The notes below the pieces were generated by a model, which saw only the letters and a list, made by a program, of their open reading frames with translations, searched no databases and was not told the origin of the DNA. A stretch of DNA of 64,000 nucleotides from the human T2T-CHM13v2.0 reference genome, Homo sapiens: the NCBI RefSeq assembly GCF_009914755.1, contig NC_060941.1. One strand, written 5' to 3'. This document shows, one piece after another, positions 38,380-63,144 of the stretch. The position numbers and the translations under genes were made by a program. Position 1 is the stretch's first letter. The number at the start of each line of letters is the position of its first letter.

Positions 38380-38514
38380 AATAGGAAGGAGATTCGCTTG
38401 CTTTGCACAGAGGCTGAGCCACAGGAGAAAGCAAAGCCAATGTGATTTATTGAATGAAAGCACTGGACAATTACCAACAACTTGTTCCTCTGCTGCCTCG
38501 AACAGCATAAACTG
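38380..38514 (+). CDS. ANKFN1: ANKFN1 internal coding exon (135 nt, phase 2 to phase 2), N-terminal region
   Basis: Acceptor cattttattctttacacAG|a at 38378-38379 and donor tg|GTAAGT at 38515. Translates as IGRRFACFAQRLSHRRKQSQCDLLNESTGQLPTTCSSAASNSINW, which I recognise as the ANKFN1 N-terminus. Joins in frame (tg|g = Trp) to the exon at 62943. Confidence 0.95.
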
Positions 38515-40337
38515 GTAAGTCAAATTTACTGTTGTCTTTCTTCATGTGAATATGGAGCTTTCTTAATTACTGATTATTTTTAAATGTGTATATGTTGCTG
38601 TGGCTTAAATGATACTTAAAAATCTGCATCTTCCAAAGTTAGCTGCAGGTGGTCCATGAAGAATACACACAAGCACACACACACACAGTGGTCTGCAATT
38701 GTACATACACGTCCCTGTGGAGAGAGAGGATGGGGGTAGGGAAGCCCCATTTCTGATAATTGGGCATTTTGTTTGCAGTAAGCTTAATCACATTAAGTGC
38801 TTGCATAACTGATTAGCATTGGCTATGAAAAATAAATTACTGTTTTGTTGTATAAAATCATTTTCCAGTCAGGTTCCTGAGTACCTAACAAAACACCTGT
38901 TGGGTCAGGTAAAGATGGGTTCCATCATGCTGATAATCCTGAATGCAAACCCAGATATATTACTGTCTTTAATCCAATTTTCAGACTGGGCAAGCAGAGT
39001 GGAATGCCAGCACTCTGTTCATCCTGGGTGAGTGTGCCCATAAATAACATTATGACTGTGATACTGAGGATATCTGCCAAGGGAATCAATGGACATGTAT
39101 TTAAATCCTTGCTTGATCCACCACTACTGTTGCATCTGTGTTATCTAAGTCTTTTCTTTATTTCATAAAGATATGGTTGCTGAGGTGTACTGGGTTCAAA
39201 GTGGGATGTTCTAAGTATCCAGTTACCCGTGCTGATCATTGGCCTGGTCACGGCCATCAGGAGCTCCACTGATAATCAAGACTGAATTTGCTTCTGTACT
39301 GGGCTCCAAAAATCCCCATACTCACTTGGTTTCTTCATTTCCTAAATAAGAGGTAGGCCAACCTCAGCAGATAGAGAAAGTGAATGTAGAAAGATCTTGC
39401 TTTTCTTACCACCATCCCCGCCCCCACCAGTCTCCTTAGTCTTTTGTTTGCCTGGCTACCCCAAGGCTTTATGGCAGCATCAATCCATCTCTGGTGAACT
39501 CAGAGTCCATATAAGTGTCATATAGAGTTTAATGTCTTTGGTGCACTCTATCTGCAGTATATCACTGGCTGTTCAGACAAAGTTGTGGCCTTGGGTGTGA
39601 CAAAGATGAATGATGTCACAACAGTGAGCAGCATGCTTCTCTAAATAAAAACCAAAGTTAGGAAACTGGAGAGATGGGTGAAGTTTTGCCTGGTGGAAAG
39701 GATCTCCAAGCCACTCAATCACAAGAGCCAAGGTCATTCTCCCAGGTGATTTGGCTATTTCACAAATGATGGCATTCTAATAGCAAGGAGACCGAGTTGC
39801 CTACTGGTTACAGGAATGGTGAGATGTCAGGATAGTTGCATATTTGTGCTGGCTCCCAGATTAAAGATGTGTCTTTTGGAAATTTCCTTAGCCTCTGTGG
39901 ATCTCTGTTCTGCCATTCCTTCTATTCCTAATTGTTTCAAAGAAGACATGCTAAACTCAGTTAATGTTTTCATGAGAAACTACTTTAGGTTCTTTTGTTA
40001 AATGATGAACTAAGTATTCAAGATCATTGTTCATGTACTTTAATCCAGAGGTCGTTCATCAGAAATACACAGATGAGGGTTTATGTGAGGATGAGGGGAT
40101 ACATGTCCCTTCCCTCATCTAAGGGATCCAGAACACTCTGAAGGAAGCATGATCACACTTAGGGAATTAGAAGAGGAGAATGGAGCTGAGAAGTGATGTT
40201 AAAAAAATTCAAATTCAAATAAATAGGTCATGTAAATAAAAAGGATTTTAAAAAATATTGATTAGTGATAACTGATTTGCTATACTTACGAGCCCAAGAT
40301 CCCAAAGATCATTAGTATTTTGAAACAAACATGGAAG

Positions 40338-40480
40338 TATTTTTTTCAGAGGGTAGTTCAGGTATGGGTATAATCCATGTATAGAACTTATGGCAACTTT
40401 CAGTTGCTCAAATTGCTCCTGTTCCCATGCATATGGAATTAGCAGCTGCAAATGTACTATGATTTGAGAAGCTCTAGAAG
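40338..40480. repeat. Left arm of a perfect 143-bp inverted repeat
   Basis: Base-by-base reverse complement of 43345-43487 (143/143). The ORF track shows the same peptide QLLIPYAWEQEQFEQLKVAISSIHGLYPYLNYPLKKI on opposite strands. Confidence 0.97.
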
Positions 40481-41699
40481 GCTTATTTGCACCCCCCAAA
40501 ATTTGTCCCATCTCTTAGTATTAGGGCACCTGAAATTCTTTCATCAGAGACTCAATTAAGTATTGATGTCTTTTATAAAATTCAAACATTCCTAGGGGAA
40601 ATAGTAAAGTAAGCCACTGATACTTTATGATAAATGAATGTATTAAATTGTTTCTACCTCAAAGGTAACCCAAAGGATGTGGAATTAGTATTCTATTAAT
40701 TATTCTGCTTTGTATTTGCTTCATACCTGTCTCTAAGAACTTCACTTATAATTATTATTTCACTCTTCATCAGAAAAATAAGTACGCTTAGGGCAAGTTA
40801 TTTCCTTCTTTTATGGAATATCTGGATTAGACAATACCATCTCAATTTCCTATAGGCTTTTGAGAGTCACATTGTGGAAAGCCAAACTCATTATCTTTTC
40901 CCTTTCTAAACTCACTTCTCTGCCTATGTTCCTTTAAAAAAAAAGGGGGGGCAGGAATCTATCATGCACCCAGTCAGCTAATAAGGCTCACAGAATTTGT
41001 CACTGGGTTTCCTGATCTCTCTAGCCCCTTCATCCAATCACTAACAAAATGTAGTCTATTTTATTTCCTTCATCTTTTGAATCTGTCCAGCCCACCCCAT
41101 CCCCATTGCCACAAGCTTTAGTTGAAGTCACCAGCTCTCATGGGGTAATTTTTTAAGAGCTCCATCCTTGGTTGTCCCCCACCACTGTTCCTACATCCCT
41201 CCCCTTTCCAGCAATCCTCTAGCTGCTACCAGAGCAATTCTCTAAAAAAGCAAATCTCAATTTTTCCTTCAAAGTCTCCAATGCTGCCCTGTTGGGTACA
41301 GGTTAAAGTCTATGATTCTTATCATGGCATGCAAGTTCTTTGGTGGTCTGGCCCTGCTACCTCTTCAGGCTTCTTTCCAAAGGTCCTGGTGTGGTTGATG
41401 AAATGTACCACTGTGAGTGTCAAAGCCCAGAAAAACTTCATGGGGGCCCTCACTGGTACTGACTTACCAGTGACACCATGATGTTTCCCATCTCTATATC
41501 CTAAGCTGAACTATTATACCTAGAATGCCCCTTTTCCCCTTCCTGCTAGTTAATTCCTCATTCATCATTCAAAATCCTTCTCAGGCATCACTTTCTCTAG
41601 CCCATTTTCCCACAACCTCTTATCCAATGACCACATCCTGTCACACAGAAAGTTCATCACTCACCCCTCTGTGCTACTTCTATGTTTTAGGTTTTTTGA

Positions 41700-41876
41700 G
41701 AAAAGTGTTTAGAGGTTAAGATCTCAAATCTAGAATCATACTACCTAGGTTTGAATCCCAGATTTACTACTCTTTAATAGTGCCTCAATTTCTATCTGTG
41801 TAAAATGGAGATAATAATAGTCATTCCTTCACATGGCTATTATGGGATTCAATACGTTGATACATGTAAAAACACT
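41700..41876 (+). mobile_element. MIR SINE (resumes at ~42233-42270 after MLT1A)
   Basis: ctaggtttgaatcccag...gtgcctcaatttctatctgtgtaaaatggagataataatag. Confidence 0.7.
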
Positions 41877-42232
41877 GCAACACACTGAATGCTTATGTTT
41901 CTCCGAAAGCCAAATGTTGAAATCTTAACCCCCAAGGTGGTGGTATTAGGAACTGAGGCCTTCAAGAAGATATTAGGTCATAAGAACCCTGCCCTCATCA
42001 TTGAAGTTAGTGCCCAACCCCAGAGAGCTAACTAGTTCCTTCCGCCATGTGAAGCTATAGCAAGAGGGTTCTGTGTTTGAAGCAGAAAGTCAGCCCTCAC
42101 CAGGCACCAAATCTACTGGTTGCCTTGATCTTGGACTTTCCAGTCTCCAGAACTGTGAGAAATAAATGTTTACTGTTTACAAGCCACCCAGTTTATGGTA
42201 TTTGGTTACAGCAGCCTGAAGGGACTAAGACA
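41877..42232 (+). mobile_element. MLT1A-like MaLR solo LTR
   Basis: tgttgaaatcttaacccccaaggtggtggtattagg...gccttgatcttggactttccagtctccagaactgtgagaaataaat...gactaagaca. Confidence 0.8.
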
Positions 42233-42278
42233 GGTATTATTCTAAATAGCACCTGGCTCATAGAAAGTGTTATAGAAG

Positions 42279-42667
42279 TGTATTAGTCTGTTCTCACACT
42301 GCCACTAAATGAAATGTATAAAGGAAAGACTGGGTAATATATGAAGTAAAGAGGTTTAATGGAATCACAGTTCCACATGGCTGTGGAGGGCTCACAATCA
42401 CATGCTCACAATCACAGCTCACATGGCTGTGGAAGGCAAAGGAGAAGCAAAGGCATATCTTACATGGCGGCAGGCAAGAGCACTTGTGCAGGGGAACTCC
42501 CATTTAAAAAATCATCAGAACTCATGAGATTTATTCACTACCATGAGAATGGTATGGGGGAAACCGCCCCCACGATTCAATTATCTCCACCTTGCCCTGC
42601 CCTTGACATGTGGGGATTATTACAATTCAGGGTGAGATTTGGGTGGAGACACAGCCAAGCCATATCA
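42279..42667 (-). mobile_element. THE1 (THE1D-like) MaLR solo LTR
   Basis: tgtattagtctgttctcac...cacagccaagccatatca; TSD agaa[g/a] at 42274-42278 and 42668-42672. Confidence 0.88.
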
Positions 42668-42778
42668 AGAAATATAAGCTAGTATTATTAGTCCATAATT
42701 TCGCATACCACACTATTTCATAGCTATGCATTTGCATAACTGACTTCCTTTCTAGCGTATGAGCTCCTTGGGAACAGG

Positions 42779-42894
42779 TAGGGTAACCAGCTCATTTCAA
42801 TTTGCCTAGTACTTTCCCAGTTTTAGCTCTGAAAGTACTGCATCCTGGAAACCCTCTCTCAGTCCTGAACAAACTAAGACAGTTGGTTACCCTA
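42779..42894. mobile_element. MER81-like hAT-Blackjack MITE
   Basis: TIRs tagggtaacca / tggttacccta; internal gttttagctctgaaagt. Confidence 0.75.
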
Positions 42895-43344
42895 TGTGGG
42901 ATACTATCTTACTTACTTTTTAATCCCTTGGGTCTATCACAGGATACACAGGTTACAAAGTAGATCATCCATAAGTATTTGTTGAACTGTAGAATCAATA
43001 CTAATCATCTTTCTATCCTCTTCTTCATAAATGTATGCTTTCATACTTCAAAAATAGTGTTCCTCTTGCCAAGGAGTTACTGCTGACTTTTCAAAACTTA
43101 TCACTTAATATATATACATTAAAGTGCACAGGAACTAGAAAGGTGGCTTCCACTCTGTGTCATCATTGTAATAGGATTGGCCACCCTTTAGCACTCAAAG
43201 ACACACCTGTTATGTTAACAGCAGGTGAGGAATGGAAAGAGTCTAACTTTCTTTTCTGCCTAGTGACAGGCAGGTTGAAGCCTTAAGGTCCCCTAGTTCA
43301 CATCACAGCTAGAAAAGCAATCTTTTGCTTTTAGAAGCCAATTG

Positions 43345-43487
43345 CTTCTAGAGCTTCTCAAATCATAGTACATTTGCAGCTGCTAATTCCATATGCATGG
43401 GAACAGGAGCAATTTGAGCAACTGAAAGTTGCCATAAGTTCTATACATGGATTATACCCATACCTGAACTACCCTCTGAAAAAAATA
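43345..43487. repeat. Right arm of a perfect 143-bp inverted repeat
   Basis: Exact reverse complement of 40338-40480; spacer 2864 bp. Confidence 0.97.
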
Positions 43488-43959
43488 TTTCAATCCCAGT
43501 CAGAAATGTCCCTCTCACTGACTATATCTGTCTACCCACCTGTCAAGCATGGTTAGAACTCCTATTTTGAATATGCTATGTCTTACAACTGCTTCTCATC
43601 CAGACTGGCTCAGACCTTTTGTCACAGTACAAATATGCTGAGAAAGTCCCACAACCAAGCTCCACTGAAACATGAACTCTGGAGGTGCCAGAACTCACAA
43701 CATGACAGGAAGTCTTGACTTCAGAATCAAGATCTAGGGAGATGAAGCTGACAGGCAGCCAGATCAAGTTCCCTTAGAAATAATAATAGCAGAGTTGTTG
43801 TAAGTATGGACTTTGGAGCCAGAGTTCAAATCCTGCTGCTCCATTTACTGGCTGTAACATCTTGGACAGGTTAGCTAACCTCTCTGGGCCTCAGTAAAAT
43901 GAGAATATGGTCAAAGCAGCTATTTCCTCAGATAATTATTATTATATCTTGTTTTAGCA

Positions 43960-44400
43960 TGTAAAAACAAAACTTAAGGTAAAGCCAATTGCAAATTATC
44001 TGTTGGGTATTGGGAGATACAACCTCAGGGCATCAAGAGTGAAGAAAAAAGGGAAGTGAGTCAAGGAAGAAAGGAAAACAAAGGTGGCTGTAACTGAAAT
44101 AGCACTTGCTTCACAAGAAAACACATCTTGTTGTTCTTTTATATATGTTGGCTTCCAGGTAGCCCTCAGAACAGTCTATAGCAAGCAATAGAGAAGAAAT
44201 TATCTACTGGCTACTGAAAGTCTCCTGTGTCTCACTGGTCCAATGTTCTCCATTTTCGGTGGTGTTACTCAGTCTCTTAGGGTAGCCACAAGCGAAGCGA
44301 AGGCCTCCATGGGTCTTGTTGGGTCAGGGCTGCTGCAGCTACTGTCACAACAAGCATGATGGAGACCATATCAAAACACGCCCTCTCCCTGAGACAGCTG
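43960..44400. mobile_element. Possible old ERVL LTR (LTR16-like)
   Basis: ttgggagatacaacctcaggg...aagggaagtgagtcaaggaagaaagg resembles LTR16; highly diverged. Confidence 0.35.
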
Positions 44401-44549
44401 GTAGTTTAGGAGACAGGATGATGGCGGCAATCGAGGCTCTCTGCTTATGTAAGCAGCAAAGCCCAGGGAACAGGTGCTTGTGAAGCCAACATGAGGAGGC
44501 TCCACTCTGCACAGGCTACTCTTCCCATTTTGGACCTGCATTCTCCAGG

Positions 44550-51479: not shown

Positions 51480-54400
51480 CTCTTTTTTAACTTTGGTTTA
51501 AGTTCAGGGTATCAGTGCAGGTTTGTTATATAGGTAAACTTGTGTCATGGGGTTTTGTTTTACAGATTGTTTCATCACCCAGGTGTTAAGCCTAGTACCC
51601 ATTAGTTGTTTTTCCTGATCCTCTCCCTCTTCCTATCCTTCACCCTCTGAAAGGCCCCAGTATCTCTTGTTCCCCTCTATGTGTCCATGTGTTATCATTT
51701 AGCTCTCACTTATAAGTGACAACCTGCAATATTTGGTTTTCTATTCCTGTGTTAGTTTGCTAAGGATAATGGCCTCCAGCTCCACCCATGTCCCTGCAAA
51801 GGTCATAATCTTGTTCTTTTTATAGCTGCATAGTATTCCATGTTATATGTGTACCACATATTCCTTATTCAGTCTATCATGGATGGACATTTAGGTTGAT
51901 TCCATGTCTTTGCTACTGTGAATAGTCCTGCAATGAACATATGCATGTATGTCTTTATAATACAATGGTTTATATTCCTTTGGGTATATACACAGTATTG
52001 GGATTGCTGAGTCAAATGGTATTTCTGTCTTTAGGTCTTTGAGGAATCACCACACTGTTTTCCACAATGGCTGGACTAATTTACACTCCCACCAACAGTG
52101 TATAAGTGTTCCTTTTCCTCCACAAACTTGCCAGCAACTGTTATGTTTTGACTTTTTAATAGTAGCCATTCTGACTAGTGTGTGATGGTATCTCATTGTG
52201 GTTTTGATTTGTATTTCTCTAATGATTAGTAATGATGAGCTTTTTTCATATGATTGTTGGCTGCATGTATGTCTTCTTTTGAAGAAAAAGTGTCTGTTCA
52301 TGTCCTTTGCCCACTTTTTGATGGGGTTGTTTGTTTCTTGTAAATTTGTTTAAGTTCCTTGTAGATGCTGGGTATTAGACCTCGTCAGATGTATAGTTTG
52401 CAAAAAATTTCTCTTTTTCTGTAAGTTGTCTGTTTACTGTGTTGATAGTTTCTTTTGCTGTGCAGAAGCTCTTTAGTTTAATTAGATCCCACTTGTCAGT
52501 TTTTGCTTTTGTTGCAAATGCTTTTGGCATCTTCATCATGAAATATTTGCCCATGCCTATGTCCTGAATGACACAGCCTAGGTTGTCTTCCAGGGTTTTT
52601 TTTATAGTTTTGGGATTTAAATTTAAGTCTTTAATCTATCTTGAGTTAATTTTTATATATGATGTAAGGAAGGGTTCCAGTTTCAGTCTTCTGCTTATGC
52701 CTAGCCAGTTATCCCAGCACCATTTATTGAATAGGGGATCCTTTCCCTATTGTCTTTATCAACTTTGTCGAAGATCAGATAGTTGTAGGTGCACAGTCTT
52801 ATTTCTGGGTTTGCTATTCTTTTCCATTGGTCTATGTCTCTGTTCTTGTGCCAGTACCATGCTGTTTTGTTTACTGTACCCCTGTGTTATAGTTCAAAGT
52901 TGGGTAGCATGCTGCCTCCAGCTTTGTTCTTTTTGCTTAGGATTGTCTTGACTATTCGGGCTCTTTTTTTGGTTTTATATGAATTTTAAAATAGTTTTTG
53001 CTAGTTCTGTGAAGAATGTGAATGGTAGTTTAATAGGAGTAGCATTAAATCTATAAATTGCTTTGGGCAGTATGGCCATTTTCATGATATTGATTCTTCC
53101 TATCCATGAGCATGGAATGTTTTTCCATTTGTTTGTGTCATCTCTGATTTATTTGAGCAGTGGTTTTAGTTCTCCTTGTAGAGATCTTTCACCCCCCTAG
53201 TTAGCAGAATTCCTAGGTATTTTATTCTTTTTGTGACAGTTGTGAATGGGAGTAGATTCCTCTTTTGGCTGTTGGCTTGACTGTTGTTGGTATATAGGAA
53301 TGCTAGTAGTTTTGGCACATTGATTTTGTATCCTGAGACTTTGCTAAAGTTGTTTATCAGTTTAAGAAGATTTGGGGCTGAGACTGTGGGATTTTCTAGA
53401 TATAAGATCATATCATCTGCAAACAGGGATAGTTTTGACTTCCTCTCTTCCTATTTGAATGCCCTTTCTTTCTTTCTGTTGCCTGATTGCCTTGTCCAGA
53501 ACTTCCAGTGCTATGTTGAATAGGAGTAGTGGGAGAGGGCATCCTTGTTTTATGCCGGTTTTCAAGGGGAATGCTTCCAGCTTTTGCCCATTCAGTATGA
53601 TGTTGGCTGTGGGTTTGTCATACATGGCTCTTATTATTTTGAGGTATGTTCCTTCAGTACCTAGTTTATTGAGAGTTGTTAACATGAAGAGATGTTGAAT
53701 TTTATCAAAAGCCTTTTTTTCATCTATTGAGATAATCATGTGGCTTTTTTTCTTTAGTTCTCTTTATGTGATGAATCACATTTATTGATTTGCATATGTT
53801 GAACCAACTTTGCATCCTAAGGATGAAGTCTATTTCATCATGGTGGATATACTTTTTGATGTGCTGCTGGATTTAGTTTGCCAGTATTTTGTTGAGGATT
53901 TTTGCATCAATGTTCTTCCAGGACATTGGCCTAAAGTTTTTTTTTTTATTATAGCTCTGCCAGGTTTTGGTATCAGGGTGATGCTGGCCTCATAGAATCA
54001 GTTAGGGAAAAGTCCCTCCTTTGCAATTTTTTGGAATCGTTTCAGTAGGAACGATACCAGCTTTTCTTTGTACATCTGGTAGAATTCAGCTGTGACTCCA
54101 TCTGGCCCTGGGCTTTTTTTGCTTGGTAGGCTATTTATTACTGCATCAATTTCAGAACTCATTATTGGCCTCTTCAGGGATTCAGTTTCTTCTTGGTTCA
54201 GTGTTGGGAGGGTGTATGTGACCAGGAATTTATCCATTTCTTCTAGATTTTCTGGTTTATGTGCATAGAGGTGTTTATCATATTCTCTGATAGTTGTTTG
54301 TATTTCTGTGGAGTCAGTGGTAATATCCCCCTTATAATTTCTGATGTGTTTATTTGAATATTCTCTCTTTTCTTCTTTATTATTCTAGCTAATGGTTTAT

Positions 54401-55370
54401 CTTTTTTTTTTTTTCAAAGAAAAAGCTCCTTGATTAATTGATCTTTTGAATGGTTTTTCATGTCTCTACCTCCTTAAGTTCAGCTCTGATTTTGGTTATT
54501 TCTTGTCTTCTGCTAGCTTTGGGATTTGTTTGCTCTTGGTTCTCTAGTTTTTTTTGTTGTGATGTTAGGTTGTTAACTTGAGATCTAACTTCTTAATGGG
54601 GGCACTTAGTGCTGTAAATTTCCCTCTTAACACTGCCTTAGCTGTGTCCCAGAGATTCTGGCACATTGTATTTTTGTTCTCATTAGTTTCAAAGAACTTC
54701 TTGATTTCTGCCTTAATTTAATTATTTACCCAAATGCCATTCAGGAGCATATTATTCAATTTCCATGTAATTGTATGGTTTTGAGTGAATCTCTTAGTCC
54801 TGAGTTCTAATTTGATTGTAACGTGGTCCAAGAGATTGTTTGATATGATTTCAGTTCTGCATTTACTAAGGAGTGTTTTACTTCCAATTATGTGATCAAT
54901 TTTAGAGTAAGTACCATGTGGTGATTAGAAAAGTGTATATTCTGTTGTTCTGGGGTGGAGAGTTCTATAGATATCTATCAGGTCCATTTGTTTCAGTGTT
55001 GAGTTCAGGTCATCTTTGTTAATTTTCTGTCTTGGTGATCTGTCTTATACTGTCAGTGGGGTGTTAGAGTCTCCCACTGTTATTGTGTGGGAGTCTAAGT
55101 CTCTTTGAAGGTCTCTAAGAACTTGCTTTATGAATCTGAGTGCTCCTGTGTTGGTTGCATATATATTAAGATATTTAAGATAGTTAGACATTCTTGCTGA
55201 ATTGAACCCTTTACCATTATGTAATGTCTTTCTTGGTTTTTGTTGTTGTTCTTTGTTGGTTTAAAGTCTGTTTTGCCAGATACTAGGATTGCAAATTCTG
55301 CTTTTTTCTGTTTTCCATTTGTTTGGTAGCTTTTCCTCATCCCTTTATTTTGAGTCTATATGTGTCATTG
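51480..55370 (-). mobile_element. Older primate L1PA (about L1PA11-15), 5'-truncated within ORF2
   Basis: 3' UTR antisense ataggtaaacttgtgtcatgggg...aagcctagtacccattag; multiple broken ORF2 frames (53166-54237, 55128-55340). Confidence 0.9.
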
Positions 55371-57021
55371 CTCAATTATTTATCTTTCTTCATGTGGATT
55401 TGCATTACTATCTAGTGTTCTTTCATTTCAACCTGAAGGTGTCGTGTTTGTGTTTATTGTACAGTAGGTATAATATCAAAGTTTTTGTTTATCTGGCAGT
55501 ATCTTAATTTCCTCTTTATTTTTGAAATGTAGTTTTGTTGGGTAGAGAAATTCTTGACAGTCTTTTTTGTTCATCACTTTGATTATGTTTTACCACTTCC
55601 TTTTGGCCCCTGTGATTTTTGGTGAAAATTAGCTGTTAATCTTTTTGAGGATCCTTGTAATGTGATGAGTCTTTTCTCTCTTGCTATCTTTAACTTTCTC
55701 TCTATGTCTTTGGCTTCTAATGGTTTGATTTTGATGTATCTAGATGTGGCTCTCTTTGAGTTTATTCTACTTAATGTTCATTGAGCCTGTTGATGCATAG
55801 TTAAATAGGGGCATATTTTGGCCATTATTTCTTCAAATAGCCTTTCTATACCTCTCTTCTTCTCCTGGGACTCCTATTATTTGTATATTGGTATACTTGA
55901 CAGTGTTCCAAGGATCTCTGCACTCTTCACTTTTCTTCATATTTTTTCACTCCTCATACTGGATAATCTTGATTGATCTATCTTTATGTTTGCTGATTCT
56001 TTCCTCTGCCTGCTCAAATCTGCTGTTGAGTATATTTTTCATTTGTTAATGTACTTTTAAATTTTAGAATTTCTATTTAGTTCTTGATTTTCTTCATAAT
56101 TTCTATCTCTTTATTATATTTTCTATTTGGCAAGACATCATTCTCAGAATTTTCTTTATTTCTTTGGGTATGGTTTAGCTCTTTGAACATATTTAAAATA
56201 GCTAATATAAAAGTCTTTGTGTAGTAAGCCCAATATTTGGGCTTCTGCAGGAATCATTTCTATTGACTGCTTTATTTCCTCGTATGGGACATAGTTTCTG
56301 TTTCTGTGCATGCCTCATACATAGTTTTCTTGAAAACTAAGCATTTTATTAATGATGTAGCAACTCTGGAAACTATATTACCCCTTCTCCCCAGTGTTCA
56401 TTGTTGTTTAATGATTTTTCAGAATTAAATTTGTAAAATCTATATTTTTTTGTTATATGTGGCCACTGAAGTTGCTACTTGGTTAACTTAGTGGTGAGTT
56501 AATGATTGAACAGAGATTTCCTTAAATGCCTAGAACTGATAAGCATCCTAGTTTTTGCTGAAGAGCTCTGCATGTGTGTGTTGGGGCACACCTTCAATAC
56601 TCAGCCAGGCAGCTGAAAATACCACCTTAGTCTTCACTTCCTGCTTGCAGAGCCATGAAGTCAGACAGAGATGAGATTTTAGGATCTTCTCAGGTCTTTT
56701 CTGAGCATGCTCCCTGCCCTGTAGTCTGTTAGATTCTCAGGAAAATGACAGAGCTTTTCAAAGCTCTCTGTGGACATCTAATTCTCCATCTAACATAGTT
56801 AAACTACTGTTAAACAATTACTAATCTTTGTTTTTGGAAAGAAAAAAAAACAACAGAAAAAAAGGCTATTAGCCCTTCATGAGCTCTAAGTCAGAGCGAA
56901 TGAAGATAAGCCTTGTGAGTAGGATTTTCTAGAAAACCCCCAGACAGATGAAATAATGACAGTTCTCTGGAAGAGGCATTTTAAAGGAGCTACAACCCCA
57001 TTCTGCCCCCTTCCAGTGGCT
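55370..57021 (-). mobile_element. Old L1M ORF1/5' region, resuming at ~58623-58905
   Basis: Degenerate L1M-like antisense sequence (aaattagctgttaatctt...gaggatccttg; tttggccattatttcttcaaata). Confidence 0.6.
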
Positions 57022-57037
57022 GACAGGCTACTGTTTT

Positions 57038-58622
57038 TTTGTTTGTTTGTTTGCGTGTTTTTTAATTTTACTTTGTGTTCTGGGATACATGTGCAGAATG
57101 TGCAAGTTTGTTACATAGGTATACATGTGCCCTGGTGGTTTGCTGCACCTATCAACTCATCATCTAGGTTTTAAGCCCCGCATGTATTAGGTATTTGTCC
57201 TAATGCTCTCCCTCCCCTTGGCCACACCCACCGACAGACCCCAGTGTGTGATGCTTCTCTCCCTGTGCCCATGTGTTCTCATTGTTCAACCCCACTTATG
57301 AGTGAGAACATGCAGTGTTTGGTTATATGTTCCTGTGACAGTTTGCTGAGAATGATGGCTTACAGCTTCATCCATGTCCCTGCAAAGGACATGAGCTCAT
57401 TCTGTTTTATGGCTGCGTAGTATTCCATGGTGTATATGTGCCACATTTTCTTTATCCAGCCTATCATTGATGGGCATTTGGGTTGGTTCCAAGTCTTTGC
57501 TATTGTAAACAGTGCTACTATAAACATACATGTGCATGTGTCTTTATAGTAGAATGATTTATAATCCTTTGGGTATATATCCAGTAATGGGATCACTGGG
57601 TCAAATGATATTTCTGGTTCTAGATCCTTGAGGAATCACCACACTGTCTTTCACAACAGTTGAACTAATTTACACTCCCACCAACAGTGTAAAAGCATTC
57701 CTGTTTCTCCACATCCTCTCCAGCATCTGTTGTTTCAGGACTCTCTAATAATTGTCATCCTAAATGGCATGAGATGGTATGTCATTGTGGTTTTGATTTG
57801 CATTTCTCTAATGACCAGTGATGATAATCTTTTTTTCATATGTTTGTTGGCCACATAAATGTCTTCTTTTGAGAAGTGTCTGTTCATATCTTTGCCTACT
57901 TTTTGATGGGGTTGTTTTTTTCTTGTAAATTTATTTAAGTACCTTGTAGATTCTGGATATTAGACCTTTGTCAGAGGGGCAGATTGCAAAAGTTTTCTCC
58001 CAACCTCTAGGTTGCCTCTTCACTCTGATGATAGTTTCTTTTGCTGTGCGGAAGCTCTTTAGTTTGATTAGCTCCCATTTGTCAATTTTGGCTTTTTTTG
58101 CAATTGCTTTTCATGTTTTAGTCATGAAGTCTTTGCCCATGCCTATGTCCTGAATGGTATTGCCTAGGTTTTCTTCTAGGGTTTTTATGGTTTTGGGTTT
58201 CACATTTAAGTTTTTAATCCATCTTGAGTTAATTTTTGTATAAGATGTGATGAAGGGGTTCAGTTTCTGTTTTCTGCATATGGCTAGCCAGTTTTCCCAG
58301 CACTATTTATTAAATAGGGAATCCTTTCCACATTGCTTGTTTTTGTCAGGTTTGTTGAAGATCAGATGGTTGTAAATGTGTGGTGTTACTTCTGAGGTCT
58401 CTGTTCTGTTCCGTTGGTCTATATCTCTGTTTTGGTACCAGTACCATGCTGTTTTGGTTACTATAGCCTTGTAGTATAGTTTGAAGTCAGACAGCATGAT
58501 GCCGCCAGCTTTGTTCTTTTTGCTTAGGATTGTCTTGGCTATACGGGCTCTTTTTTGGTTCTAGATGAAATTTAAATTATTTTTTTCTAATTCTGCCAAG
58601 AAAGTCAATGGTAACTTGATGG
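57038..58622 (-). mobile_element. 5'-truncated L1PA (L1PA8-like)
   Basis: ttttaagccccgcatgtattaggtatttgtcctaatgctctccc; TSD gacaggc[t/c]actg[t/c]ttt at 57022-57037 and 58623-58638. Confidence 0.92.
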
Positions 58623-62942: not shown

Positions 62943-63144
62943 GAATTGTCGTGTGAAAATGACGCAACAAATGCAAAATTTACATCTCTGTCAGTCAAAA
63001 AAACATAGTGCTCCCTCATCTCCCAACGCAGCCAAACGCCTGTACAGGAACCTCTCTGAGAAACTGAAAGGGAGCCACTCTTCCTTCGATGAGGCCTATT
63101 TTAGGACAAGAACTGATCGGCTGAGTCTCAGGAAGACCTCGGTG
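62943..63144 (+). CDS. ANKFN1: ANKFN1 internal coding exon (202 nt, phase 2 to phase 0), upstream of the ankyrin repeats
   Basis: Acceptor ctttcctcttcttAG|g at 62941-62942 and donor gtg|GTAACA at 63145. Translates as (W)NCRVKMTQQMQNLHLCQSKKHSAPSSPNAAKRLYRNLSEKLKGSHSSFDEAYFRTRTDRLSLRKTSV (ORF track 62953..63204), recognised as ANKFN1. Confidence 0.95.

What the first reader, a model, noticed from the sequence alone, without database searches (positions are those of the whole stretch)
40338..43487. Perfect 143-bp inverted repeat of apparently unique DNA bracketing 2.9 kb of old repeats, 1.8 kb downstream of an ANKFN1 exon
Seen: 40338-40480 is the exact reverse complement of 43345-43487 (143/143, checked base by base). 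I do not recognise the arms as any repeat family, and no TSD flanks the pair. Complementarity decays just outside the core (5/7 at 40331-40337 vs 43488-43494). The spacer is made of heavily diverged L2, MIR, MLT1A, MER81 and THE1 copies. Established: human DNA transposons are long extinct, so their TIRs are not expected to stay identical over this length, and nearby inverted repeats can be homogenised by gene conversion and drive recurrent inversions. Inference: three options. (a) An old arm pair kept identical by conversion, making the spacer a flip-flop inversion cassette. (b) Selection for a long perfect RNA duplex in the ANKFN1 pre-mRNA (ADAR/Dicer substrate or splicing control). (c) A very recent template-switch duplication. 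Under (a) or (b), the arms may once have been only several hundred bp apart before the L2 and nested elements expanded the loop.
Basis: partly seen in the sequence, partly recalled or inferred. Interest (0 to 1): 0.85.

Follow-up and report, generated by a model that had tools for sequence, protein, structure and literature searches.

The report
Young 143-bp inverted duplication in intron
A 143-base stretch of unique DNA in an ANKFN1 intron is present twice, in opposite orientation 2.9 kb apart and letter-perfect, which is best read as the scar of one recent local copying accident rather than a transposon, a maintained switch or a selected RNA hairpin.

Summary
40338-40480 is the exact reverse complement of 43345-43487 (143/143). 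The arm occurs only twice in the whole assembly. No target-site duplication flanks it. Similarity stops sharply at both ends.

It is not a transposon terminal repeat. Perfect identity needs no special force. The arm has no CpG, and with recalled human mutation rates zero differences in 143 bp has probability 0.33-0.52 at 6.5 Myr. It only drops to 5% at 17-30 Myr.

The left arm begins just after GAAG and ends in GAAG. This is the only 4-bp match among four independent end-versus-flank comparisons (null 2.4%). The inner edge of the right arm lies in a 19-bp quasi-palindrome. Both features fit a microhomology-guided template switch that copied the right arm, inverted, to the left site.

I could not decide whether the 2.9-kb spacer was inverted in the same event. 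No old repeat crosses a junction, and no other human or primate assembly was available.

Small inverted duplications are the commonest non-mobile-element inversion-type variant in 1,019 long-read human genomes (277 events, median 284 bp; PMC12350158). Verdict: a real but ordinary new member of a known kind. Low interest.

The parts
40338..40480 (+). Left arm of the inverted repeat (143 bp, 38% GC, no CpG). Probably the derived copy.
   Evidence: Exact reverse complement of 43345-43487. It starts right after GAAG (40334-40337) and ends in GAAG (40477-40480), the only 4-bp terminal match among four end-versus-flank comparisons.
43345..43487 (-). Right arm of the inverted repeat (143 bp). Probably the original, contiguous with its right flank.
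   Evidence: for identity. Polarity is inferred from the microhomology pattern. Only two copies exist in the genome.
40481..43344 (.). 2864-bp spacer of mostly unique or very old DNA. It holds a repeat at 41836-42240, a ~390-bp THE1-type LTR at 42269-42669 and a MER81-like palindromic element at 42772-42901. Its orientation relative to the ancestor is unresolved.
   Evidence: GC skew is -0.13 (lowest 0.3% of sliding windows) but TA skew is +0.04 (typical), so this is inconclusive.
40331..40337 (+). Outer 7-nt extension with 5/7 complementarity to 43488-43494. It contains the GAAG microhomology partner.
   Evidence: (P = 0.015 by chance).
43332..43350 (+). 19-nt quasi-palindrome (7-bp stem, 5-nt loop) spanning the spacer/right-arm junction at 43344/43345.
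   Evidence: It is the only one of the four junctions inside such a hairpin. The null is 1.7% of 20,000 random window positions.

Best explanation
This is a single, evolutionarily recent local rearrangement. During replication or break repair, a growing DNA end left its template at the left site, at ...GAAG (40337). It re-primed about 3 kb away on the opposite strand and copied 143 nt of the sequence now at 43487 down to 43345. It stopped where the template forms a small quasi-palindrome, then returned to the original site using the 4-nt match GAAG.

The result is an inverted duplicate (left arm) of a native sequence (right arm), with the 2.9-kb spacer left in its original orientation.

Shown: the arms are perfect and two-copy, with sharp edges, no TSD, one 4-bp junction microhomology and a palindrome at the donor edge.

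Inferred: the direction of copying (right to left), the mechanism (MMBIR/FoSTeS-like or polymerase-theta-type templated insertion), the absence of inversion, and neutrality. The duplicate is most likely a neutral intronic variant, fixed or polymorphic, with no designed function.
For: The arms are identical at 143/143. Only 2 copies exist in the 3.1-Gb assembly (at E<=1 add none for the arms).

Flank similarity beyond the arms is at chance level, as expected for one discrete copied tract. There is no TSD.

Among 4 independent end-versus-flank comparisons, 1 shows a 4-bp terminal match and 3 show 0 bp. The null is 0.6% per comparison and 2.4% for four. The junction at 43344/5 lies inside a 7-bp-stem hairpin (null 1.7% per position).

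Zero differences is expected for a young event.

For class frequency, in 1,019 long-read genomes inverted duplications are the most common class among 733 non-MEI inversion-type SVs. There are 277 of them, with median length 284 bp. Most have 1-15 bp of microhomology, which the authors read as a replicative origin (PMC12350158, section 18 and passages).

The THE1-type LTR in the spacer is antisense to ANKFN1, the usual orientation for intronic LTRs. This rests on a recalled consensus and a recalled bias, and gives only weak support for an uninverted spacer.
Against: No outgroup or second human assembly was available, so the ancestral state was never observed.

The microhomology is short (nominal 2.4%) and the palindrome was noticed post hoc (about 7% for four junctions). 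The same 4-bp match fits an inversion-plus-duplication with the right arm native equally well.

The first switch has no perfect microhomology: 5/7 with a mismatch next to the junction.

The spacer has the most negative GC skew in the window, which could hint at an inverted segment, although its TA skew does not follow.

It is not stated in what I read of PMC12350158 how far its inverted duplications lie from their source.
Confidence: 0.45

Rival explanations
1. Inversion with a flanking inverted duplication (dupINV/INVdup class, or the staggered-break model known from Drosophila). The ancestor read A - B - X' - C. The segment B+X' was inverted and X' was retained or re-copied at its old place. 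The spacer is therefore inverted relative to the ancestor and the arms mark the inversion ends.
For: The arms abut the spacer directly on both sides, which is the structure this class predicts. CNV-flanked inversions (dupINV, INVdup and others) are a named class of human complex SV (PMC5338099, passages). Inverted duplications at inversion breakpoints from staggered breaks are documented in Drosophila (PMC1885836, search listing and abstract only). The 4-bp match (CTTC on the other strand) fits the new junction at 43344/5 in this model as well. The spacer GC skew is the lowest in the window.
Against: The TA skew of the spacer is typical of the window. The quasi-palindrome across 43344/5 would have to have arisen by chance at a new junction. 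This model needs about 3 kb of synthesis on the switched template, against 143 nt in the best explanation. The LTR in the spacer is now antisense to the gene, the common orientation (recalled). No old repeat crosses any junction, so nothing shows a broken element.
Confidence: 0.3
2. An old inverted pair kept identical by gene conversion, making the spacer a recurrent flip-flop inversion cassette.
For: Perfect identity and inverted orientation are what conversion would maintain. Nearby inverted repeats can mediate recurrent inversion (PMC6748972 and PMC3961182; passages of the first, listing only of the second).
Against: The arms are 143 bp, whereas the inverted repeats of the 24 NAHR inversions in PMC6748972 span 654 bp to 24.2 kb. 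There is no decayed homology outside the arms. Zero differences needs no conversion at ages under about 7 Myr. The locus is not among the 45 common inversions of that study; its chr17 entries, in the searched 12 of 14 supplement files, lie at 18.4 and 25.9 Mb.
Confidence: 0.07
3. An assembly artefact, or a change private to the CHM13 cell line.
For: Only one haploid assembly was seen. Perfect identity is compatible with an event of any recent date, including in culture.
Against: The region is unique euchromatic sequence with no other copies to confuse an assembler. From recalled knowledge, this assembly was polished and validated with several read types.
Confidence: 0.05
4. Selection for a long perfect RNA duplex in the ANKFN1 pre-mRNA, as an ADAR or Dicer substrate or for splicing control.
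For: Both arms lie in the same intron on the transcribed strand (hub annotation). The predicted duplex is -266 kcal/mol.
Against: Selection on pairing tolerates G-U pairs and compensatory changes, so it does not predict letter-perfect arms. Recency does. The arms bracket no exon (hub annotation). Rfam finds nothing on the arms. No paper links ANKFN1 with A-to-I editing at this locus: 1 paper holds both terms and it is unrelated by title and abstract.
Confidence: 0.03
5. Terminal inverted repeats of a DNA transposon, or a retro-copied fragment.
For: The orientation is inverted. The outer end of each arm is an A7/T7 run, which faintly resembles a poly-A end.
Against: There are only 2 copies in the genome and no TSD. 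The spacer is a mosaic of unrelated old repeats and unique DNA. A retrocopy landing 2.9 kb from its source by chance is about a 1-in-a-million event (inference).
Confidence: 0.01

Closest known systems
Small inverted duplications and templated inverted insertions in human germline structural variation (replicative MMBIR/FoSTeS-type origin), as catalogued in PMC12350158
   Same: It is a short inverted copy of nearby unique sequence (143 bp, against a median of 284 bp). It has sharp ends, short microhomology at a junction, and no mobile-element hallmarks.
   Different: Here the copy lies 2.9 kb from its source. I could not establish from what I read how far source and copy lie apart in that catalogue. 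Polymorphism of this locus is unknown.
Duplication-flanked inversions (dupINV / INVdup; PMC5338099) and staggered-break inversions with inverted duplications at the breakpoints (Drosophila, PMC1885836)
   Same: The layout is identical: an inverted duplicate at each end of a segment.
   Different: Inversion of the spacer is not shown here. The human events described in that paper were called with 3.5-kb jumping libraries and are mostly far larger.
NAHR-mediated recurrent human inversions (InvFEST set, PMC6748972)
   Same: Inverted repeats bracket a few kilobases.
   Different: Their repeats are 654 bp to 24.2 kb and more than 90% identical, not 143 bp. This locus is not in that set.
Inverted Alu pairs forming intronic dsRNA (recalled knowledge)
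   Same: Two inverted copies in one intron could pair in the pre-mRNA.
   Different: Those are multi-copy elements at 70-91% complementarity, like the other pairs in this window. This pair is unique DNA and perfect.

Membership tests
DNA transposon with terminal inverted repeats | Arms belong to a multi-copy family | tested here: not met
   There are 2 matches in the whole assembly, both at this locus. No extra arm matches appear at E<=1. nhmmer finds none in 161-295 kb of other human DNA.
DNA transposon with terminal inverted repeats | Target-site duplication flanking the unit | tested here: not met
   No direct repeat of 4 nt or more at the outer flanks, allowing 3 nt of slop.
Small inverted duplication / templated insertion (replicative template switch) | Inverted copy of nearby single-copy sequence with discrete boundaries | tested here: met
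   Flank alignments are at chance level.
Small inverted duplication / templated insertion (replicative template switch) | Microhomology at a breakpoint junction | tested here: met
   A 4-bp GAAG is shared by the left flank's end and the left arm's end. The other 3 comparisons give 0 bp. The null is 2.4% for four comparisons. This is weak support.
Small inverted duplication / templated insertion (replicative template switch) | Ancestral allele lacking one arm, with the spacer in the same orientation | not testable with these tools
Duplication-flanked inversion (dupINV/INVdup) | Segment between the duplicates is inverted relative to the ancestral allele | tested here: inconclusive
   No repeat crosses a junction. 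The skews give mixed signals.
NAHR inversion cassette (recurrent toggling) | Inverted repeats long enough for homologous exchange (published range 654 bp - 24.2 kb) | tested here: not met
   The arms are 143-150 bp. The range comes from a PMC6748972 passage.
NAHR inversion cassette (recurrent toggling) | Both orientations present among haplotypes | not testable with these tools
   Only one haploid assembly is available.
Functional intronic dsRNA (ADAR/Dicer substrate) | Both arms on one transcript | tested here: met
   Both arms lie in the ANKFN1 intron between the exons at 38380-38514 and 62943-63144 (hub annotation). The duplex energy is -266 kcal/mol.
Functional intronic dsRNA (ADAR/Dicer substrate) | Editing, small RNAs, or conservation of pairing across species | not testable with these tools
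   No expression, editing or comparative data are held. Rfam finds nothing on the arms. The literature search was empty for this locus.

The most novel reading that the evidence does not exclude
The pair is not a passive scar. It could be a segregating or recurrently flipping 2.9-kb inversion cassette inside ANKFN1. Alternatively, the perfect 143-bp intramolecular duplex in the pre-mRNA is heavily A-to-I edited and affects splicing of the neighbouring exons. The sense-strand left arm also carries a splice-acceptor-like run, 12 nt, and then a donor-like GTATGG, so it could offer a cryptic in-frame-length microexon.
Probability: 0.06. Interest if true: 0.55.

Novelty: new member of a known kind. 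Interest (0 to 1): 0.2.

Why it matters
If the reading is right, the locus is one more small inverted duplication, and a clean one. Its arms are unique DNA, so the junction microhomology and the palindrome at the donor edge can be read without interference from repeats.

It also gives a general caution for scans of this kind. Perfect identity over about 150 non-CpG bases says only "younger than a few million years"; it does not imply conversion or selection.

The locus would matter more only if population or primate data showed both spacer orientations, or if RNA data showed heavy editing at the arms.

Tried and rejected
1. Old-repeat continuity across junctions, to tell inversion from simple copy. 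Whole-genome searches with both junction regions and nhmmer of six to nine flank and junction pieces against 161, 261 and 295 kb of other human DNA found no element within about 230 bp of any junction. The nearest is a MIR-like core at 43818-43895.

2. Strand-composition asymmetry as an inversion signal. GC skew is extreme but TA skew is ordinary, so this is inconclusive.

3. Extended or gapped homology beyond the arms. None was found.

4. Literature on this locus.
- ANKFN1 + inversion: 7 papers, none about this site by title or abstract.
- ANKFN1 + chimpanzee: 1 paper, unrelated.
- ANKFN1 + A-to-I: 1 paper, unrelated.
- PMC6748972 supplements (12 of 14 files searched): no ANKFN1, and chr17 entries elsewhere.
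- PMC10150506 supplements: no coordinate or gene match in 2 files.
- PMC12350158 supplement: one file, cut when stored. No ANKFN1 and no '57204'. Only 2 of the 6 '5629' occurrences were shown (both shown '57207' passages are on chr14), so chr17 is not excluded.
- The ape-genome paper's supplements could not be opened. They may hold the answer.

5. Retro-copy idea, prompted by the A7 run at the outer ends. Rejected because there is no TSD and the proximity to the source is implausible.

6. Rfam scan of 39500-44500. Nothing on the arms.

Full report
**Observation**

The two stretches were read on both strands and compared by script. 40338-40480 is the exact reverse complement of 43345-43487, 143 of 143. 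The repeat finder gives 150-nt arms at 99% (40331-40480 and 43345-43494) with 2864 nt between them.

The match has E = 2.5e-71 inside the window and 4.8e-67 against the whole 3.1-Gb assembly. Among the 25 longest of 35 inverted pairs within 10 kb in the window, every other pair is 70-91% complementary. These lie in the stretches the hub lists as masked repeats.

**What the arms are not**

A whole-genome search with the arm finds two places only, the arms themselves. Searches with 1.3 kb around each arm at E<=1 add nothing for the arms or their immediate flanks. nhmmer against 161-295 kb of other human DNA finds nothing for the arm or for pieces spanning the four junctions.

No direct repeat of 4 nt or more flanks the unit. 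Rfam finds nothing on the arms.

The spacer holds:
- a repeat at 41836-42240;
- a ~390-bp LTR at 42269-42669, which matches at least 40 scored copies at 77-88% and which I read, from a recalled consensus, as a THE1-type LTR on the minus strand;

A transposon with terminal inverted repeats is therefore excluded on copy number and TSD.

**How old it can be**

The arm has no CpG and is 38% GC. With recalled human per-year mutation rates of 0.35-0.6e-9, the probability of zero differences between two 143-bp copies is 0.33-0.52 at 6.5 Myr and 0.08-0.22 at 15 Myr. It reaches 5% at 17-30 Myr.

Perfect identity therefore says "young", but it demands neither gene conversion nor selection. Local alignments of 60, 150 and 400 nt of flank beyond the arms, outer and inner, are no better than shuffles: 59-411 of 500 shuffles reach the observed score. 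The copied tract was discrete, and there is no halo of decayed homology.

**Junction anatomy**

There are four independent comparisons that can reveal junction microhomology, each pairing one end of an arm with the flank on its other side. Three give 0 bp. One gives 4 bp: the left flank ends in GAAG and the left arm ends in GAAG. The null is 0.6% per comparison from 200,000 pseudo-segments, or 2.4% for four.

This marks the left arm's outer junction as new and the right arm plus its right flank as ancestral. The spacer/right-arm junction (43344/5) lies inside a 19-nt quasi-palindrome with a 7-bp stem and a 5-nt loop. It is the only one of the four junctions in such a structure, and 1.7% of 20,000 random positions are.

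Both features were found by inspection, are individually weak, and share the same arm end, so they are not fully independent.

**Mechanism**

The simplest reading is a two-step template switch. A 3' end at the left site re-primes about 3 kb away on the other strand. The match there is imperfect, 5 of 7. It copies 143 nt and stalls or dissociates at the quasi-palindrome. It then returns using GAAG. This gives an inverted duplicate with the spacer unchanged.

The same 4-bp match fits an inversion of spacer plus right arm, with the right arm retained (dupINV). I could not separate the two models, for three reasons:
- No old repeat crosses a junction. The nearest is a MIR-like core at 43818-43895.
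- Strand skews are mixed. GC skew is -0.13, the lowest 0.3% of sliding windows, but TA skew is +0.04 against a window mean of +0.05.
- No other assembly is held.

I put the uninverted copy at 0.45 and dupINV at 0.30. This split rests on the shorter synthesis tract, the palindrome being natural at an ancestral junction, and the antisense LTR. The last two are weak.

**Comparison with what is known**

In 1,019 long-read human genomes, inverted duplications are the most common class among 733 non-mobile-element inversion-type variants. There are 277, with a median of 284 bp. Most have 1-15 bp of breakpoint microhomology, which the authors read as replicative in origin (PMC12350158; section 18 and passages read).

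Duplication-flanked inversions are a named class (PMC5338099; passages). Staggered-break inversions with inverted duplications are described in Drosophila (PMC1885836; listing and abstract only).

Recurrent NAHR inversions in humans use inverted repeats of 654 bp to 24.2 kb (PMC6748972; passage). This locus is not among that study's 45 inversions, in the 12 of 14 supplement files searched.

No paper in the library links ANKFN1 to an inversion, to chimpanzee comparison, or to A-to-I editing at this site (listings only).

**Other readings**

- Conversion-maintained flip-flop cassette: 0.07.
- Artefact or cell-line-private change: 0.05.
- Selected RNA duplex: 0.03. The duplex is predicted at -266 kcal/mol, but perfection is not what pairing selection predicts, and no exon is bracketed.
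- Transposon or retrocopy: 0.01.

**Limits**

Supplement look-ups closed, so the ape-genome inversion tables were not seen, and I made no further paper reading. The PMC12350158 supplement was cut when stored and only partly displayed. The mutation rates, the THE1 consensus, the MER81-to-mir-584 link and the intronic LTR orientation bias are all recalled, not from calls.

**Verdict**

This is a real feature with an ordinary cause: a new member of a known kind. Interest is 0.2.

Noticed in passing
window 42772-42901: A palindromic ~120-bp element matches Rfam mir-584 (RF01016) on both strands at 34 and 28 bits, well below the gathering score of 80. It has many 73-81% copies genome-wide. It is probably a MER81-type MITE rather than a miRNA gene.
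   Followed up: partly
window 40338-40370 (+ strand, left arm only): The sense-strand arm begins with a T7 run plus CAG (acceptor-like), then 12 nt, then GTATGG (donor-like). This is a possible cryptic 12-nt microexon pattern in the ANKFN1 intron. There is no annotation or evidence for its use.
   Followed up: no
window 40481-43344: The spacer has the most negative GC skew in the 64-kb window (-0.13, lowest 0.3% of sliding windows of the same length), while its TA skew is typical. No explanation was found.
   Followed up: partly
window 41836-42669: A repeat at 41836-42240 lies directly next to a ~390-bp THE1-type LTR (42269-42669, minus orientation by recalled consensus). The same two pieces lie about 940 bp apart in locus L020. 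This may be a truncated MaLR element (internal part plus LTR).
   Followed up: partly
window 51553-57280: There is a very strong T-over-A skew (+0.29 to +0.33) over about 6 kb, coinciding with stretches the hub lists as masked repeats. It is probably antisense LINE sequence.
   Followed up: no
window 43818-43895: A ~75-bp core matches scattered genomic copies at 74-83% (one short 37-nt match at 95%). It is MIR-like, and the element may extend over about 43724-44050.
   Followed up: partly
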